IMG/VR virus record: IMGVR_UViG_2861079508_000001
Reading direction: 5' to 3' (one strand)
DNA: 64,000 nt
Source: a virus
Lineage: Duplodnaviria > Heunggongvirae > Uroviricota > Caudoviricetes
The notes beneath the pieces are model-generated. The model had not been told where the DNA came from. It made no database searches and saw only the letters and a program-made list of their open reading frames with translations. Position numbers and translations under genes: made by a program. Shown here one piece after another: positions 2,437-56,424 of this stretch. The stretch's first letter is position 1. Every line of letters starts with the position of its first letter.

Positions 2437-2775
2437 TCACTCAAAAGTGCTGATACCCAAAATGCGCTCAAGATGGGCCGCGTCTTCATCGCTTACCAGC
2501 ATTGTGTCGTCTACGTACCAGCAGCTACCGTTGTGCCAACAAACACCGTCATCATCGATATAAATAGAATCCGCATCCATTCCTGTGTATTCAACTAGAT
2601 TGCGTTCAATTGCCGCTTGAATTTCTTCATCGTTCAGCCCGTCGCACTTGATCATGAACAACGGGTAAACGTCATAGTCGGTACTAGATGAAATGCGAAC
2701 CAAAGTCTTCATGTGTTTTCTCCTTGTTGGTAAGTACTTATCTATCTTAATGGGCGCTATAAGGCGCACAATCAT
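2437..2775 (-). CDS. hypothetical protein; real start probably ATG at 2712 (MKTLVRISS...)
   Basis: GGAG ribosome-binding site a few bases upstream of the ATG at 2712; track start is a longer alternative. Confidence 0.4.
   Translation of the reverse strand: MIVRLIAPIKIDKYLPTRRKHMKTLVRISSSTDYDVYPLFMIKCDGLNDEEIQAAIERNLVEYTGMDADSIYIDDDGVCWHNGSCWYVDDTMLVSDEDAAHLERILGISTFE
2729..2746. promoter_or_regulatory. motif B (inverted ATAAGT/ACTTAT hexamers) upstream of 2437..2712 gene
   Basis: GGTAAGTACTTATCTATC read directly. Confidence 0.4.
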
Positions 2776-2891
2776 TGTGTTCAGGCTGGTGGAAAGAACT
2801 TCTCCAGCGTGTGGTTGATAGCCTTATCAATGTGCATCAGGTGCCAGACGACCATATCTTTGCTTCCAATGCCGCGAGTGTAGATGAAGTG

Positions 2892-3578
2892 TCAACAAAA
2901 ACTGGCCACCGAGTTAGAGTTTTTCCAGTATCGATTTTCCGATTCATTTGGGGGTAATCCACCGTTATATTCGTGCGGTCTTAGTGCGCTGTAATATCCA
3001 ACGATATAGTCCGTTATGGCGTGAGCTGCCTCGCTGAAGCTTACGTAACCCACCACCGGCATCCATTCGTTCTTCAGACTCCTGAAGAAGCGTTCCATTG
3101 GGCTGTTATCCCAGCAGTTTCCGCGCCGGCTCATACTCTGCCTGATCTGGTATCGCCACAATAACTGCCGGAACTGCCTGCTCGTATAATGACTGCCCTG
3201 ATCGCTGTGGAACATCACTCCGCCGGGCTTACCACGGGTTTCCCATGCCATTTCCAGCGATTTCATGGTGAGCCTGCTGTCCGGCGAGAACGACATGGCC
3301 CAGCCCACTGGTTTTCTTGCGAACAGGTCGAGAACAACGGCGAGGTACGCCCAGCGCTTACCCGTCCAGATATAGGTCACATCACCGCACCACACCTGAT
3401 TTGGCTCGGTCACGGCGAACTGCCGTTCAAGGTAGTTAGGGATAGCAACATGTTCATGACCACCACGTTTATACCGGTGAGTCGGCTGCTGACAGCTGAC
3501 CAGCCCCAGCTCCTTGGCAATTTGACGTCCTTTCAGGCCTGGTGACCCACCTAATAACTCTGAGACTGCCTTCAGCAA
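2892..3578 (-). mobile_element. IS3-family transposase OrfB fragment (DDE/rve core); remnant, no orfA upstream
   Basis: 228-aa ORF with [19 protein letters not shown] and [17 protein letters not shown] typical of IS3-family integrase core; only 15 bp from the hsdR stop. Confidence 0.7.
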
Positions 3579-3592
3579 ACCATCACTCCTTT

Positions 3593-54872: not shown

Positions 54873-55684
54873 GTCTCATCTCCCTTGAGCAAGTCTCTGT
54901 GACGCAAGTGATGCGTCGTATGTTTCTGATACATTCCGCCGTAATAAGCACGACAACTTAGGCGGTCGATCTGGTGATGAAGAATCATTCCATCGCCGAT
55001 ATAAACCGCGCAGTGGTCAGGCATTTTCCCGTATTGGATAAAGAATACGTCCCCACGTTGAGGCTCTGTTCCGGGCGCAAGACGCACCAATCCCTCGTTA
55101 CGGTAGTTCTGATCGAGAATGTCGTTATCGCCGGTGTACCACGATGGAATATGCAGGTGTGCGTTCGGGTTTAGTTCGACGTTAAACTCACGCTTCAAAT
55201 AGTCCCGACACAACATCCAGCAATCAAATACGCCAAATACATACGGTCTGCCCAGGTATGGCATTTCGAAACCATCAGGTGTGATCACATTCATCTCGCT
55301 AAAATGGAAAGGGGCATCTCCCTCAACATTCTTGCGAATAGCCAGAATCATCCACGGAACTTCCGTCGCTTCGCAGCCTGCACGATCGGCATCAGATGCT
55401 TCTGCTGATTCATCAGTATGTGAATGCCAGATTGCGATAACATCACCCGCATCCTCTGCCGCCATAATGTCGTCAACGTGCATTACAAAAGTGTTCTGCG
55501 GGTTCTCCGAAACATTCCGCGCTTCCATAAAGCGATATTTGTCGCCATTAGTTCTAACCAGAAAGCCACACGCTTCATTAGGGTAGCGATTTATGGCGCA
55601 GAGATAGATTTGCTGCATAACGTCAGAGCCAAGCTCAGGGATTGCTTTATTACCCATACCGCGTAGCTCCAATAAATCCGCCAA
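54860..55684 (-). CDS. lambda K-like tail assembly protein (JAMM/MPN plus NlpC/P60)
   Basis: JAMM-like WHSHTDESAEASDAD and Cys/His C-terminal domain. Confidence 0.8.
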   Translation of the reverse strand: MADLLELRGMGNKAIPELGSDVMQQIYLCAINRYPNEACGFLVRTNGDKYRFMEARNVSENPQNTFVMHVDDIMAAEDAGDVIAIWHSHTDESAEASDADRAGCEATEVPWMILAIRKNVEGDAPFHFSEMNVITPDGFEMPYLGRPYVFGVFDCWMLCRDYLKREFNVELNPNAHLHIPSWYTGDNDILDQNYRNEGLVRLAPGTEPQRGDVFFIQYGKMPDHCAVYIGDGMILHHQIDRLSCRAYYGGMYQKHTTHHLRHRDLLKGDETCLS

Positions 55685-56381
55685 AATGGATCACACCGTC
55701 GGCAAAATAATTCCGACGCGCATTACAGGCGTCATAACGTTTTGTGCAGTAATCCGCACCAGACATAGACGTCTGCTGGTTATTTTTGTCGAAATATGGA
55801 CCGGTATAGCCGCATTCTGGCCCTCGGTATTTCCACGGGCAGGTGTTTTTAATGATCTGACGATACGGCAGTTGCACCCCCATCAAATCGAACACACTGG
55901 ACAATTCAAACTCGACAACCTGATGAGTTTCGAGAGTTTTCTGTTCGATAAACCACATTTCATCCGGGAAATGTTGGTTTGGATCTGCTGTTGGGTTGCC
56001 GTCTTTAAAATTAACGGCATCGAGGAAGCGAGCCAGCGTCATCTTGCGAATAATGCGGCAGCCAACAAGATCGTCGTTCGCCTGAACTTCCGCAGAGACG
56101 GTTCCGGCAAAGTTCGATACCTGAATTTTTGGACGTGGCAACGTTCCCTGGCCCGTTTTGTCAAAGCCTGATGCTTTTATTGGCCACGGCTCGTATGTCA
56201 CTCCTTGCCAGACGACCGGTTGCATCAGTTCGTTTGTTCCGGCGTGGAAGAATAGCTTCCCCCCTGAAGTTGTGTTCGACATATCCAGTACGAACAACTC
56301 AATGAGTGCAGAGGGAGATAAGCTCTGAATATCAGCTTTAATTCCCATTGTTTCATCCTTGAAATAAGTAGGCGCTAACAT
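55650..56381 (-). CDS. lambda L-like minor tail protein (real start probably ATG at 56348)
   Basis: KNTCPWKYRGPECGY matches the lambda L motif; AAGGA ribosome-binding site before 56348. Confidence 0.8.
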   Translation of the reverse strand: MLAPTYFKDETMGIKADIQSLSPSALIELFVLDMSNTTSGGKLFFHAGTNELMQPVVWQGVTYEPWPIKASGFDKTGQGTLPRPKIQVSNFAGTVSAEVQANDDLVGCRIIRKMTLARFLDAVNFKDGNPTADPNQHFPDEMWFIEQKTLETHQVVEFELSSVFDLMGVQLPYRQIIKNTCPWKYRGPECGYTGPYFDKNNQQTSMSGADYCTKRYDACNARRNYFADGVIHFGGFIGATRYG

Positions 56382-56403
56382 CCTGTCAGCGCCACAATGA
56401 TAG

Positions 56404-56424
56404 TAAATCAGTACTTACTTATCC
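56404..56424. promoter_or_regulatory. motif B upstream of L-like gene, followed by hairpin 56371-56393
   Basis: TAAATCAGTACTTACTTATCC then GGCGCT...AGCGCC. Confidence 0.4.

What the first reader, a model, noticed from the sequence alone, without database searches (positions are those of the whole stretch)
2729..56424. Recurrent palindromic motif B (inverted ATAAGT/ACTTAT hexamers) upstream of at least 11 transcription units
Sites such as TAAGTATGTACCTACTTAT (49504), GATAGATCAGTACTTACTTATTATCTATC (15710) and GTAAGTGGTTACTTAT (22091) lie 15-110 bp upstream of start codons of early genes (SSB, cobS-like), lysis (holin-like), tail (fiber, L-like) and the AT-rich orphan gene. A weaker half-site sits near 32857. 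A 54-bp extended palindrome (39091-39144) is centred on the same core. Dyad symmetry suggests a dimeric DNA-binding regulator or a phage-specific promoter element.
Basis: seen in the sequence. Interest (0 to 1): 0.6.

Follow-up and report, generated by a model that had tools for sequence, protein, structure and literature searches.

The report
Dispersed repressor-type operator in phage-plasmid
A 20-base mirror-symmetric DNA word sits in front of about fifteen gene groups of this SSU5-like phage-plasmid (about 28 copies in complete relatives) and is most likely the docking site of one small regulator that keeps the virus genes silent while the element lives as a plasmid.

Summary
The window is an SSU5-like phage-plasmid. 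The "inverted hexamers at variable spacing" resolve into one fixed 20-bp dyad, ATA(A/G)GTAAGTACTTAC(C/T)TAT, of about 26 bits. The window has 12 sites of at least 14 bits against 0.16 expected, and 11 of them lie in the 8% that is non-coding. A few weaker sites exist.

The same word sits at orthologous gaps in Cyrano, SSU5 and a Klebsiella relative, at 22-23 sites of at least 16 bits per genome. Variant words occur in more distant relatives.

Mirrored positions do not covary, which argues against an RNA hairpin. Sigma-70-like promoter elements are better in the gene direction. They overlap the dyad in several different registers: spacer, -35 and transcription start.

A weaker, conserved copy sits on the predicted start site of a strong promoter for the XRE-type HTH gene at 24796..25182. 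That gene is expressed in Cyrano lysogens. It is missing from the lytic isolate SSU5 through a recent deletion of about 6 kb.

Best reading (about 0.5): these are operators of a global lysogeny repressor, probably this HTH protein. The arrangement is functionally like P1 C1 or mycobacteriophage L5 gp71, but symmetric and unrelated in sequence. The main rival is an activator site. No binding or transcript data exist.

The parts
2400..2419 (-). Motif B site, 23.3 bits. Gene strand reads ATAAGTTAGCATTTACCTAT. It lies 1 nt upstream of the GTG of a small membrane-protein ORF (CYRAN_60 homologue).
   Evidence: Orthologous sites at Cyrano 59399, SSU5 58074 and Klebsiella 104805.
2726..2745 (-). Motif B site, 23.4 bits (ATAGATAAGTACTTACCAAC). 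AAGGAG follows directly, and the ATG is at 2712, 13 nt away.
   Evidence: Orthologue at SSU5 57746.
12193..12212 (-). Motif B site, 14.9 bits. It is preceded by an intrinsic terminator-like hairpin and TTGAAA, and the dyad fills a 17-bp spacer. The ATG is at 12160.
   Evidence: In the orthologues Cyrano 57446 and SSU5 55695 the arrangement is TTGAAA-N17-TATCAT.
15711..15730 (-). Motif B site, 24.7 bits. It lies 84 nt upstream of the gp32-like SSB gene (14598..15626). TAGATA-N17-TATCAT overlaps it.
   Evidence: The tool's own promoter scan lists TAGATA-17-TATCAT at 15736..15708.
22088..22107 (-). Weak, irregular motif B site, 10-12.5 bits in two registers. TATAAT follows directly. It lies 58 nt upstream of the cobS-like AAA ATPase gene (20794..22029).
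23419..23438 (-). Intragenic motif B site, 14.7 bits, inside an acidic low-complexity stretch of the cobT-like gene (22125..24233).
   Evidence: The site is stronger at the same place in relatives: SSU5 43661 (22.2 bits), Klebsiella 91932 (23.4) and the Enterobacter plasmid at 10343 (20.5).
24722..24749 (+). Predicted sigma-70 promoter of the HTH gene: -35 TTTACA (24722-24727), a 16-nt spacer, then -10 TAATAT (24744-24749).
   Evidence: Sequence read. It is part of the best-conserved island of the intergenic region in the E. coli/Klebsiella alignment, and is also present in the Enterobacter plasmid. Prediction only.
24748..24767 (+). Weaker motif B variant, 13.0 bits (ATCGGTAAGCACTTACCAGA). 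The inner 14 bp are kept and the outer ATA/TAT are lost. It lies on the predicted transcription start, 28 nt before the ATG at 24796.
24796..25182 (+). XRE-type helix-turn-helix regulator of 128 aa. It is the candidate protein that binds motif B and the likely lysogeny repressor.
   Evidence: Weak Pfam HTH_19 and HTH_37 hits. Model with pLDDT 72 whose best PDB matches are C proteins, HigA, Stl, SinR and the 434/P22 repressors. Helix-turn-helix residues 28-50 are at least 90% invariant across the family. The Cyrano orthologue CYRAN_45 is expressed 10-fold above background in lysogens (PMC9928086).
27610..27629 (+). Motif B site, 18.9 bits, between divergent genes. It lies 85 nt upstream of 27715..28623 (+) and 69 nt from 27296..27541 (-).
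30204..30223 (-). Motif B site, 25.5 bits. It precedes a -10-like TAAGAT, a conserved non-coding stretch, and a cluster of four tRNA genes (29455 down to 28802).
   Evidence: Orthologues at Cyrano 38252, SSU5 41773 and Klebsiella 83366.
32849..32868 (-). Weak site, 13.0 bits, with only one good half. It lies 14 nt upstream of the GTG at 32834.
   Evidence: Orthologue at Cyrano 35607, 14.8 bits.
33719..33738 (-). Motif B site, 18.2 bits, followed by an extended -10-like TGTAAGAAT. The ATG is at 33677.
38987..39006 (-). Motif B site, 24.0 bits, 12 nt upstream of the ATG at 38974. The predicted promoter TTCCAA-N17-TATCAT lies just upstream, so the site falls in the leader.
44119..44138 (-). Motif B site, 19.6 bits, 62 nt upstream of the holin-like gene (ATG at 44056).
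   Evidence: Orthologues at Cyrano 26657, SSU5 27474 and Klebsiella 69442.
49503..49522 (-). Motif B site, 22.9 bits, followed by a G+C-rich hairpin. It lies 43 nt upstream of the tail-fibre gene (ATG at 49459).
56403..56422 (-). Motif B site, 22.8 bits. TGGATA-N17-TATCAT overlaps it and a hairpin follows. It lies 54 nt upstream of the tail-tip L-like gene (ATG at 56348).
39091..39145 (.). 55-bp imperfect palindrome. It is a separate element and not a motif B operator. Its centre is AAGTTACTT at 39113-39121.
   Evidence: Relatives carry three copies per genome, at Cyrano 31175, 78095 and 108357.

Best explanation
Motif B is the operator of one dimeric DNA-binding protein encoded by the phage-plasmid. 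Single 20-bp dyad sites are spread over the element in front of lytic-cycle gene groups of every class: recombination and replication, nucleotide metabolism, tRNAs, lysis and tail. Complete relatives have 22-23 sites of at least 16 bits and 27-29 of at least 13 bits. The sites overlap host-type (sigma-70) promoter elements or lie just downstream of them.

In the plasmid (lysogenic) state the protein occupies these sites and blocks initiation. At the sites that sit in leaders or between cistrons it blocks read-through instead. The most likely protein is the 128-aa XRE-type HTH regulator at 24796..25182, which would also limit its own synthesis through the weaker site on its promoter.

What is shown: the motif, its enrichment, its conservation, its symmetry without base-pair covariation, its overlap with directional promoter-like elements, and the distribution of the HTH gene.

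What is inferred: that a protein binds, that binding represses, and that the HTH protein is the binder.
For: 1. Enrichment: 12 sites of at least 14 bits against 0.16 expected, and 10 against 0.046 within non-coding DNA alone.

2. Conservation: the same consensus occupies orthologous gaps in Cyrano, SSU5 and Klebsiella pJN2-26, even though the flanks differ. Related variant words occur in an Acinetobacter phage-plasmid and a more distant Klebsiella one.

3. Symmetry: half-sites carry equal information, and mirrored positions pair no more often than independence predicts. At positions 4/17, A-C occurs 16 times and A-T 15 times (Fisher p = 0.6).

4. Direction: the best -35/-10 combination within 45 bp is stronger in the gene direction than in reverse in each of three genomes (p = 0.03, 0.01, 0.0008). 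At a score of 8 or more, 46 of 77 sites qualify forward against 13 of 77 in reverse.

5. Register: the -10 falls in different places relative to the dyad. In some sites the dyad fills a 17-bp spacer, as in TTGAAA-N17-TATCAT. In others it covers the -35, and in others it lies at or after the start site. All of these positions are compatible with blocking RNA polymerase. They are not all compatible with one activation geometry.

6. The HTH gene's own promoter, TTTACA-16-TAATAT, has a weaker motif copy on its predicted start site. Promoter plus site form the conserved island of that intergenic region in the E. coli/Klebsiella alignment, and the same arrangement is present in the Enterobacter plasmid. 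Sites also lie upstream of the HTH gene in the two distant lineages.

7. The HTH protein has a Cro/CI-type fold. Its helix-turn-helix is nearly invariant across a family that is otherwise 55-79% identical. The family occurs only on contigs of about 100-116 kb of this kind and in 960 PLSDB plasmids.

8. In Cyrano lysogens the orthologue is transcribed 10-fold above background. [quoted passage not shown]

9. SSU5, known as a plaque-forming isolate, lacks the HTH, integrase and 70-aa genes. An Enterobacter plasmid with 99.3% identical flanks has a roughly 6-kb segment carrying them at that spot.
Against: There are no binding, footprint or transcription-start data for any SSU5-like element, so all promoters here are predictions from hexamer scores.

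Most sites lack a good -35, which is also what activator-dependent promoters look like.

Late genes of well-studied phages are under positive control (PMC10695390). A repressor alone would not give early/late timing.

Some sites are followed by terminators or hairpins, or directly abut a ribosome-binding site. That fits a roadblock role but is not classical operator placement.

Other conserved nucleic-acid-binding proteins exist outside the window: two ParB_N proteins, one with a site 17 nt before its start, and a full-length FljA-family protein. They are better conserved between E. coli and Klebsiella (75-89%) than the HTH protein (57%).
Confidence: 0.5

Rival explanations
1. Motif B is the binding site of a lytic-cycle transcription activator. 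The protein would be made once the lysogeny repressor is removed, and it would recruit host RNA polymerase to promoters that lack a -35 element. This resembles Lpa at the P1 late promoters or MotA at T4 middle promoters. The copy on the HTH promoter would then shut the repressor gene off during lytic growth.
For: Most sites have no good -35. About a third have a -10-like TAT(C/G)AT at dyad positions 18-23 or a hexamer at 21-26. That places the dyad centre near -20 to -23, similar to the P1 late '-22 region'.

The P1 late box AAGTTACTT shares its AAGT/ACTT half-sites with the centre of motif B.

Late genes of well-studied phages are positively controlled (PMC10695390).

The word precedes T4-like replication and nucleotide genes, the class that MotA serves in T4 (established knowledge).
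Against: The TATCAT is part of the symmetric extension and is equally frequent on the reverse strand: 11/8, 10/15 and 8/8 forward/reverse in three genomes.

There is no single register between the dyad and the -10.

Several sites fill a 17-bp spacer between good -35 and -10 hexamers, where a bound protein should exclude polymerase.

Some sites are 1-13 nt from the start codon or are followed by a terminator.

No Lpa homologue was found (tblastn E at least 1).

The word precedes early-type and late-type genes alike.
Confidence: 0.25
2. The binder is not the HTH regulator but another conserved DNA-binding protein of the element. One candidate is either of the two ParB_N-domain proteins, acting as KorB does on plasmid RK2. 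Dispersed palindromes would then serve global silencing, possibly combined with plasmid segregation or compaction.
For: Two adjacent ParB_N proteins are conserved at 87-89% identity between the E. coli and Klebsiella elements. This matches the near-identity of the motif consensus between those lineages.

A motif site lies 17 nt upstream of the first ParB gene in Cyrano, with counterparts in SSU5 and Klebsiella.

Sites occur in varied contexts, including intragenic and next to terminators, as KorB sites do (established knowledge of RK2).
Against: These genes lie outside the window and next to the terminase genes, not next to the ParA gene.

Only the N-terminal ParB domain is recognised.

This reading does not explain the conserved site on the HTH promoter any better than the main explanation does.

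It offers no reason why promoter-like elements around the sites should be directional.
Confidence: 0.12
3. The word acts in RNA. Transcribed through, it folds into an A/U-rich hairpin just ahead of ribosome-binding sites. There it is bound or cut by a protein to control translation or mRNA processing. One candidate is the FljA-family protein, whose Salmonella relative binds the fliC mRNA leader. RNase III is another.
For: Several sites lie 1-14 nt from a start codon or directly before an AAGGAG.

Sites occur between cistrons of long co-directional operons.

A full-length FljA-family protein (Pfam PF03614, E = 1e-80, with a weak Hfq-like hit) is conserved in Cyrano, SSU5 and Klebsiella.

FljA relatives block fliC translation (PMC2652032).
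Against: Mirrored positions show no compensatory change. Mismatching A-C is as common as A-U at positions 4/17, and pairing at 9/12 is below expectation.

The sequence of both arms is conserved, not just the pairing.

One site lies between divergent genes.

The E. coli fliC leader shows no similarity to the word.

The FljA-like gene has no site nearby.
Confidence: 0.08
4. The word is a non-regulatory repeat. It could be a miniature mobile palindrome, or a boundary sequence that promotes exchange of gene modules between related elements. On this view it is tolerated only between genes.
For: It lies at module boundaries in varied contexts. The family is highly mosaic: only 45-60% of window segments align to relatives.
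Against: The word carries 26 bits over exactly 20 bp with a sharp edge.

It is kept at orthologous positions across genera while the flanks diverge.

One copy is maintained inside a coding region in four lineages.

It is associated with directional promoter-like elements.

In Acinetobacter all sites changed together, TAAG to TCAG.
Confidence: 0.05

Closest known systems
Phage-plasmid P1: C1 repressor and its dispersed operators
   Same: Both are plasmid prophages with many transcription units. Lytic functions are held off by one repressor acting at operators scattered over the genome, including on its own gene. P1 has at least 45 units, and C1 controls early expression (PMC10695390). The P1 record annotates operators at pmgT, lpa, c1 and coi.
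   Different: P1 operators are annotated as 17-bp 'monovalent' sites. From memory they are asymmetric and read by a 283-aa protein of a different family. No C1 homologue exists here (tblastn E at least 4). Here the site is a 20-bp dyad, and it also precedes tail and lysis genes, which in P1 depend on Lpa.
Mycobacteriophage L5 gp71 'stoperators' (Brown et al. 1997, from memory)
   Same: In both, about 30 repressor sites spread through the whole genome in short gaps between genes of early and late operons. Many lie inside transcription units rather than at promoters. The effect is genome-wide silencing in the lysogen.
   Different: L5 sites are asymmetric 13-mers with one orientation relative to transcription. 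Motif B is symmetric, and many copies overlap promoter-like elements. The hosts and proteins are unrelated.
Lambdoid/434/P22-type CI-Cro operators
   Same: Both have a dyad operator read by a dimeric Cro/CI-fold HTH protein, an operator overlapping promoter hexamers, a site at the repressor's own promoter, and a small divergent gene next to the repressor gene (24332..24544).
   Different: Lambdoid operators are clustered in two or three tandem sets at the immunity region, with cooperative binding. Here single sites are dispersed, about 28 per genome. Only one weak site lies at the immunity region in the E. coli-type elements.
P1 late promoters and Lpa
   Same: Both have a small inverted repeat just upstream of a -10 element and no -35, repeated in front of many operons of a phage-plasmid. 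The P1 box AAGTTACTT shares AAGT/ACTT with the motif centre.
   Different: The P1 box is 9 bp and is annotated at a fixed '-22 region' in the two late promoters seen. P1 has 11 late promoters with it. Motif B is 20 bp, is placed variably, also precedes early-type genes, and has no Lpa homologue alongside.
KorB operator sites of IncP plasmid RK2 (from memory)
   Same: About a dozen identical palindromes are dispersed on a plasmid, at and away from promoters. They are bound by a ParB-family protein that represses globally.
   Different: That palindrome is 13 bp with a different sequence. Here ParB-like proteins are only a secondary candidate and lie outside the window.

Membership tests
Cro/CI (XRE-fold) phage repressor-operator system | Operator is a 14-20 bp dyad whose two halves are read independently by a symmetric dimer | tested here: met
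   The dyad is 20 bp. The halves carry 13.4 and 12.6 bits. Mirrored positions show no covariation.
Cro/CI (XRE-fold) phage repressor-operator system | Operators overlap the -35, spacer, -10 or start site of the promoters they control | tested here: inconclusive
   Predicted hexamers overlap 46 of 77 sites in the gene direction against 13 of 77 in reverse. Per-genome p values are 0.03 to 0.0008. No transcription starts have been mapped.
Cro/CI (XRE-fold) phage repressor-operator system | The repressor gene carries an operator at its own promoter | tested here: met
   Site 24748-24767 lies on the predicted start of TTTACA-16-TAATAT. The arrangement is conserved in the Klebsiella and Enterobacter elements. 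That the site is functional is inferred.
Cro/CI (XRE-fold) phage repressor-operator system | Operators clustered in tandem sets at the immunity region | tested here: not met
   There is one weak site at the immunity region. All strong sites are single and dispersed.
Cro/CI (XRE-fold) phage repressor-operator system | The repressor protein binds the operator | not testable with these tools
   Needs a gel-shift, footprint or ChIP experiment.
P1 C1 multi-operator regulon | Many operators dispersed over a plasmid prophage in front of lytic operons | tested here: met
   The window has 12 sites of at least 14 bits plus weaker ones. Complete relatives have 22-23 sites of at least 16 bits and 27-29 of at least 13 bits.
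P1 C1 multi-operator regulon | A C1-family repressor and its 17-bp asymmetric operator | tested here: not met
   There is no C1 homologue. The site here is symmetric and unrelated in sequence.
Mycobacteriophage L5 stoperator system | Asymmetric sites, all in one orientation relative to transcription | tested here: not met
   The motif is a dyad and its half-site information is about equal.
Mycobacteriophage L5 stoperator system | Sites inside transcription units that stop elongation | tested here: inconclusive
   Sites at 2726, 38987 and 23419 lie in a leader, next to a ribosome-binding site, or inside a gene. Orthologues of other sites precede terminators. Their effect on elongation was not tested.
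P1 Lpa-dependent late promoters | Inverted repeat at a fixed distance upstream of a -10, with no -35 | tested here: not met
   The -10 position relative to the dyad ranges from -17 to +42. The commonest offset, 18, is equally frequent on both strands.
P1 Lpa-dependent late promoters | An Lpa homologue is encoded | tested here: not met
   tblastn of P1 Lpa against the window, Cyrano, SSU5 and the Klebsiella element gives E of at least 1.
Structured RNA element (hairpin operator or processing site) | Base pairs maintained by compensatory changes | tested here: not met
   Observed pairing equals the expectation under independence at every variable pair. No Rfam family matches at any site.
Host transcription-factor regulon | The same word occurs in host chromosomes | tested here: not met
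   The exact consensus was found in 13 unrelated species-representative genomes only, once each, and in no enterobacterial genome. This is a strict test because only perfect matches count.

The most novel reading that the evidence does not exclude
A single 128-aa Cro/CI-fold protein, confined to SSU5-like phage-plasmids, silences a 108-kb virus through about 28 dispersed single symmetric operators. These act as promoter blocks and also as roadblocks: between cistrons, ahead of terminators, and even inside a coding region. This would be a symmetric, Gram-negative counterpart of the mycobacteriophage stoperator system. Loss of this one gene would turn the plasmid into a lytic phage, with SSU5 as the natural example.
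Probability: 0.3. Interest if true: 0.65.

Novelty: new variant of a known kind. Interest (0 to 1): 0.5.

Why it matters
SSU5-like phage-plasmids are common in clinical Escherichia, Klebsiella, Enterobacter, Salmonella and Yersinia. The HTH gene alone is found in 960 PLSDB plasmids. Some of these elements carry resistance genes (abstract of PMC9600943).

Their lysis-lysogeny control has not been described in the literature I could search. A defined operator word plus a named candidate repressor gives a complete predicted regulon. It also gives a simple explanation for why SSU5 behaves as a lytic phage.

The idea can be tested directly. One could induce or cure these plasmids, or make cells immune to SSU5-type phages by supplying one gene.

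It would also add a third example, unrelated in sequence, of genome-wide silencing by dispersed repressor sites, alongside P1 C1 and L5 gp71.

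Tried and rejected
1. Variable-spacing inverted hexamers (N0/N1/N4/N8). Rejected: re-aligning on a 20-mer shows one fixed dyad. The internal TAAG repeats create false registers.

2. The word as a -10 element, or as a strictly one-strand motif. My first impression was that the upstream half is better conserved. It did not hold up: the halves carry 13.4 and 12.6 bits.

3. Fixed promoter geometry, with -10 at dyad positions 18-23 and -35 at -5..0. There is no forward/reverse difference at that fixed geometry. 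Only a free search shows directionality.

4. FljA link. The E. coli fliC leader was fetched and shows no resemblance to the word. The primary FljA papers could not be read.

5. Host regulon. An exact-consensus scan of species-representative genomes found nothing enterobacterial.

6. P1 homology. There is no Lpa or C1 homologue. The P1 genome paper could not be read.

7. SSU5 lacking the HTH gene as an argument against HTH being the binder. Withdrawn after finding a plasmid with 99.3% identical flanks that carries the module.

8. Heteroimmune test. A Klebsiella element whose HTH is 47% identical still has a closely related word, so it does not discriminate between candidates.

9. Sequence search of the HTH protein against PDB found nothing useful. 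Only fold comparison worked.

10. A 2026 preprint on an SSU5-like plasmid could not be opened.

Full report
**What the window is.** The window aligns at 94-97% identity with Escherichia phages PhiR41_1, CMS-2020a and Cyrano, and at about 82-84% with Salmonella phage SSU5. It is therefore an SSU5-like phage-plasmid. It lies in reverse orientation relative to those records, so most virus genes are on the minus strand (Cyrano annotation).

**Check of the observation.** Every quoted sequence is present, one of them a base off. Listing all ATAAGT/ACTTAT hexamers with context showed that the apparent spacings of 0, 1, 4 and 8 bases come from an internal four-base repeat (TAAG TAAG T / A CTTA CTTA).

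Aligned as 20-mers, the sites fit one dyad, ATA(A/G)GTAAGTACTTAC(C/T)TAT. A symmetric weight matrix refined on Cyrano and SSU5 carries about 26 bits.

In the window it finds 12 sites of at least 14 bits against 0.16 in 200 dinucleotide shuffles. Within the 5.25 kb of non-coding DNA alone it finds 10 against 0.046, and a single site in 58.7 kb of coding DNA. Enrichment is therefore not an effect of AT content.

The finding did not list sites at 2400, 12193 and 24748, or the intragenic site at 23419. It also did not quote the site ahead of the holin gene at 44119. The 22088 site is weak and 32849 is mostly one half. Distances from site edge to the likely start codon range from 1 to 84 nt.

The 55-bp palindrome (39091-39145) has a centre with different half-site spacing, AAGT-T-ACTT. 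Relatives carry three copies per genome. I treat it as a separate element.

**Conservation.** At 13 bits or more, Cyrano has 29 sites and SSU5 has 27 in the 100 kb held. At 16 bits or more the counts are 22 and 23, and Klebsiella phage pJN2-26, no more than 80% identical in DNA, has 22 (sites listed).

They occupy the same gaps in all three genomes: portal, head, tail, tail fibre, holin, helicase region, tRNA cluster, cobS/cobT-like genes, SSB, SbcD, NrdA, ThyX, methylase, ParB and others. The flanks differ between genomes.

One site is maintained inside an acidic linker of the cobT-like gene in four lineages.

Exact consensus copies in IMG/VR lie mostly on contigs of 56-112 kb, the size range of these elements; I did not inspect their gene content. 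None occurs in enterobacterial species-representative genomes.

More distant relatives carry variants. An Acinetobacter phage-plasmid has ATCAGTCAGTACTGACTGAT, in which both TAAG units have become TCAG. A second Klebsiella type has ATAAGTAAAT..ATTTACTTAT.

**DNA or RNA.** If the word acted as an RNA hairpin, variable mirrored positions should covary. They do not. At every pair, observed complementarity equals the product of the column frequencies. At positions 4/17, the mismatch A-C (16 sites) is as common as A-T (15 sites), with Fisher p = 0.6.

The two halves carry equal information (13.4 and 12.6 bits). This is the signature of a symmetric dimer reading double-stranded DNA. No Rfam family matches at any site.

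**Relation to promoters.** At a fixed geometry there is no strand difference. The frequent TAT(C/G)AT at dyad positions 18-23 is part of a symmetric extension (ATGATA...TATCAT) and is seen on both strands.

A free search within 45 bp gives a different picture. The best -35/spacer/-10 combination is stronger in the gene direction than in reverse in Cyrano, SSU5 and the Klebsiella element (p = 0.03, 0.01, 0.0008). Across all four sequences, 46 of 77 sites reach a score of 8 forward against 13 of 77 in reverse.

The -10 then falls in several registers:
- just after the dyad, so the dyad fills a 17-bp spacer (TTGAAA-N17-TATCAT, TTGATA-N17-TAACAT, TAGATA-N17-TATCAT);
- 31-36 bp in, so the dyad covers the -35;
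- before the dyad, so the dyad covers the start site or leader.

The tool's own scan lists TAGATA-17-TATCAT across the 15711 site. It also shows that promoter-like matches in general are under-represented in the first 20 kb (13 against 28 ± 4.7).

Some copies are followed at once by a ribosome-binding site, a G+C-rich hairpin or a terminator. Such varied placement is hard to reconcile with one activation geometry. It fits a protein that blocks polymerase at promoters and, at some places, within transcripts.

**Candidate binder.** The gene at 24796..25182 encodes a 128-aa protein with weak HTH_19 and HTH_37 hits. A model of moderate confidence (pLDDT 72) has as closest solved folds the restriction-modification controller C proteins, HigA, Stl, a Salmonella phage repressor, SinR, and the 434, lambda and P22 repressors. 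It is therefore a Cro/CI-type domain with extra C-terminal helices.

Its homologues occur on contigs of about 100-116 kb of this kind and in 960 PLSDB plasmids of Klebsiella, Escherichia, Acinetobacter, Enterobacter, Yersinia, Salmonella and others, almost always next to an integrase gene.

Across 20 members that are 55-79% identical, the helix-turn-helix (residues 28-50) is at least 90% invariant. This matches the near-identical operator word in these lineages. The Acinetobacter protein, whose element has the changed word, differs there (KR.PNV..M against KN.NN..L). This correlation is weak, because every protein has diverged in that lineage.

Upstream of the gene lies TTTACA, 16 nt, then TAATAT. 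A 13-bit copy of the word starts inside the -10 and so covers the predicted start site. This block is the best-conserved island of the intergenic region in the E. coli/Klebsiella alignment, and the same arrangement is present in the Enterobacter plasmid. The two distant lineages also have sites upstream of their HTH genes. A weak operator on the regulator's own start site is the usual arrangement for negative autoregulation.

Published transcriptomes of the Cyrano lysogen list the orthologue (CYRAN_45, "putative repressor") at 10-fold above background, together with toxin-antitoxin and maintenance genes. The element is induced by genotoxic stress (PMC9928086).

**The SSU5 case.** SSU5 has 27 strong sites but no HTH, integrase or neighbouring 70-aa gene. 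At first this seemed to argue against the HTH protein.

However, Enterobacter plasmids that are 98-99.4% identical to SSU5 on the ligase/tRNA side of that spot carry an extra segment of about 6 kb there. The match resumes on the cobT side as a second aligned piece. The segment holds PhoH, glutaredoxin, a toxin, the integrase, the HTH gene and the 70-aa gene, and it carries the same promoter-plus-site arrangement.

SSU5 is thus a recent deletion derivative. A phage isolated by plaque formation that has lost the candidate repressor but kept its operators is what the repressor model predicts. This is an inference, not a test.

**Other candidates and rivals.** Outside the window the family encodes a full-length FljA-family protein (PF03614, E = 1e-80) and two ParB_N proteins. 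All are conserved in SSU5 and in the Klebsiella element.

FljA relatives act on the fliC mRNA leader (PMC2652032). The fliC leader does not resemble the word, and the covariation test speaks against an RNA target.

A ParB/KorB-like global silencer remains possible. A site lies 17 nt before the first ParB gene.

The strongest rival is an activator site. Most sites lack a -35, and late genes of studied phages are positively controlled (PMC10695390). The P1 late-promoter box AAGTTACTT shares AAGT/ACTT with the motif centre. That same 9-mer is the centre of the window's 55-bp palindrome.

Against the activator reading stand the variable register, the 17-bp-spacer cases, the symmetric TATCAT, the mixed early and late targets, and the absence of an Lpa homologue.

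**Comparison with known systems and verdict.** Functionally the arrangement is closest to P1 C1 with its dispersed operators and to mycobacteriophage L5 gp71 with its roughly 30 stoperators. Structurally the site and the candidate protein are of the lambdoid Cro/CI kind.

It fails defining features of each family. It has no C1 homologue or asymmetric operator, no orientation bias, and no clustered tandem operators. So I file it as a new variant of a known kind, not as a member of any of them.

No paper in the searchable library describes this word or the lysogeny control of SSU5-like elements.

My confidence is high that the motif is real and functional. It is about 0.5 for operators of a global repressor, and about 0.6 of that for the HTH protein as the binder. 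It is about 0.25 for an activator site. Everything beyond the sequence statistics awaits binding and transcript-mapping experiments.

Noticed in passing
window 1095-1628: Twelve copies of a 17-bp repeat (TACCGCTGACAGCATAC, 0-3 mismatches, all on one strand) lie directly after the ORF 1..1095. That ORF corresponds by position to the RepA gene of Cyrano.
   Followed up: partly
window 2876-11592: This stretch holds cargo absent from the closest phage records. It includes an IS911-like fragment (98% identical to the copy in phage Sf6, 2876-3512) and a type I restriction-modification system: HsdR at 3593..6610, a DUF4268 protein at 6625..7788, HsdS at 7798..9126 and HsdM at 9133..11592.
   Followed up: partly
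window 60602-61815 (ALIL pseudoknot at 60883-60999): An IS3-family insertion sequence is present, with an Rfam ALIL frameshift pseudoknot at 120 bits. It sits between two minus-strand ORFs (56809..60540 and 61818..62714). Together these match the length of the 1525-aa tape-measure protein of Cyrano. The tail gene therefore appears to be split, and this copy may be unable to form virions.
   Followed up: partly
window 28802-29455 and 29456-30203: Four tRNA genes (Ser, Thr, Tyr, Asn) lie on the minus strand. Between them and the strong motif site at 30204 is a non-coding stretch. Its first part (…ttgttttcgttgagacgcgactgtttgaac…) is nearly identical in Cyrano, SSU5, Klebsiella and Enterobacter elements. 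It could be a leader or a small RNA. There is no Rfam match.
   Followed up: no
window 39091-39145; Cyrano (L001-L003) 31175, 78095, 108357: A 55-bp imperfect palindrome has conserved outer arms CCTGCTTC(C/T)GTATATA. Relatives carry three copies per genome: one after the ParA operon, one after the methylase gene and one before the terminase genes. In the window its centre is AAGTTACTT, identical to the '-22 box' of the P1 late promoter LPhot. Its function is unknown; a centromere, an origin or a late-promoter-like site are possibilities.
   Followed up: partly
SSU5 (L004) about 42640; Enterobacter ludwigii plasmid L066 3430-9440: SSU5 lacks a segment of about 6 kb that is present in plasmids with 99.3% identical flanks. 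The segment carries PhoH, Gp49, glutaredoxin, a YafO-type toxin, the integrase, the XRE regulator and a 70-aa gene. This may explain why SSU5 behaves as a lytic phage.
   Followed up: yes
window 1-20000: Sigma-70-like promoter matches are fewer than expected: 13 found against 28.0 ± 4.7 in shuffles. This suggests selection against stray promoters.
   Followed up: no
Acinetobacter baumannii plasmid L050 (2997, 9465, 16895, 26772, 31971, 19026, 19478, 19873): The distant Acinetobacter relative uses a changed word, ATCAGTCAGTACTGACTGAT, at equivalent places: before SbcD, the cobS-like gene and the holin gene, with several copies near its HTH gene. Both four-base units changed in the same way, TAAG to TCAG.
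   Followed up: partly
Cyrano L003 780-1301 (outside the window): A full-length homologue of the Salmonella phase-1 flagellin repressor FljA (PF03614, E = 1e-80) is conserved in Cyrano, SSU5 and the Klebsiella element. It could alter host flagellin expression or act on phage transcripts.
   Followed up: partly
window 34405-35595 (+) and 39257-40024 (+): Two genes lie on the strand opposite to the virus genes. One is a Sel1-repeat protein (six repeats, E = 8e-53). The other is a protein with a LEM-3-like GIY-YIG nuclease domain. Both are likely accessory cargo.
   Followed up: no
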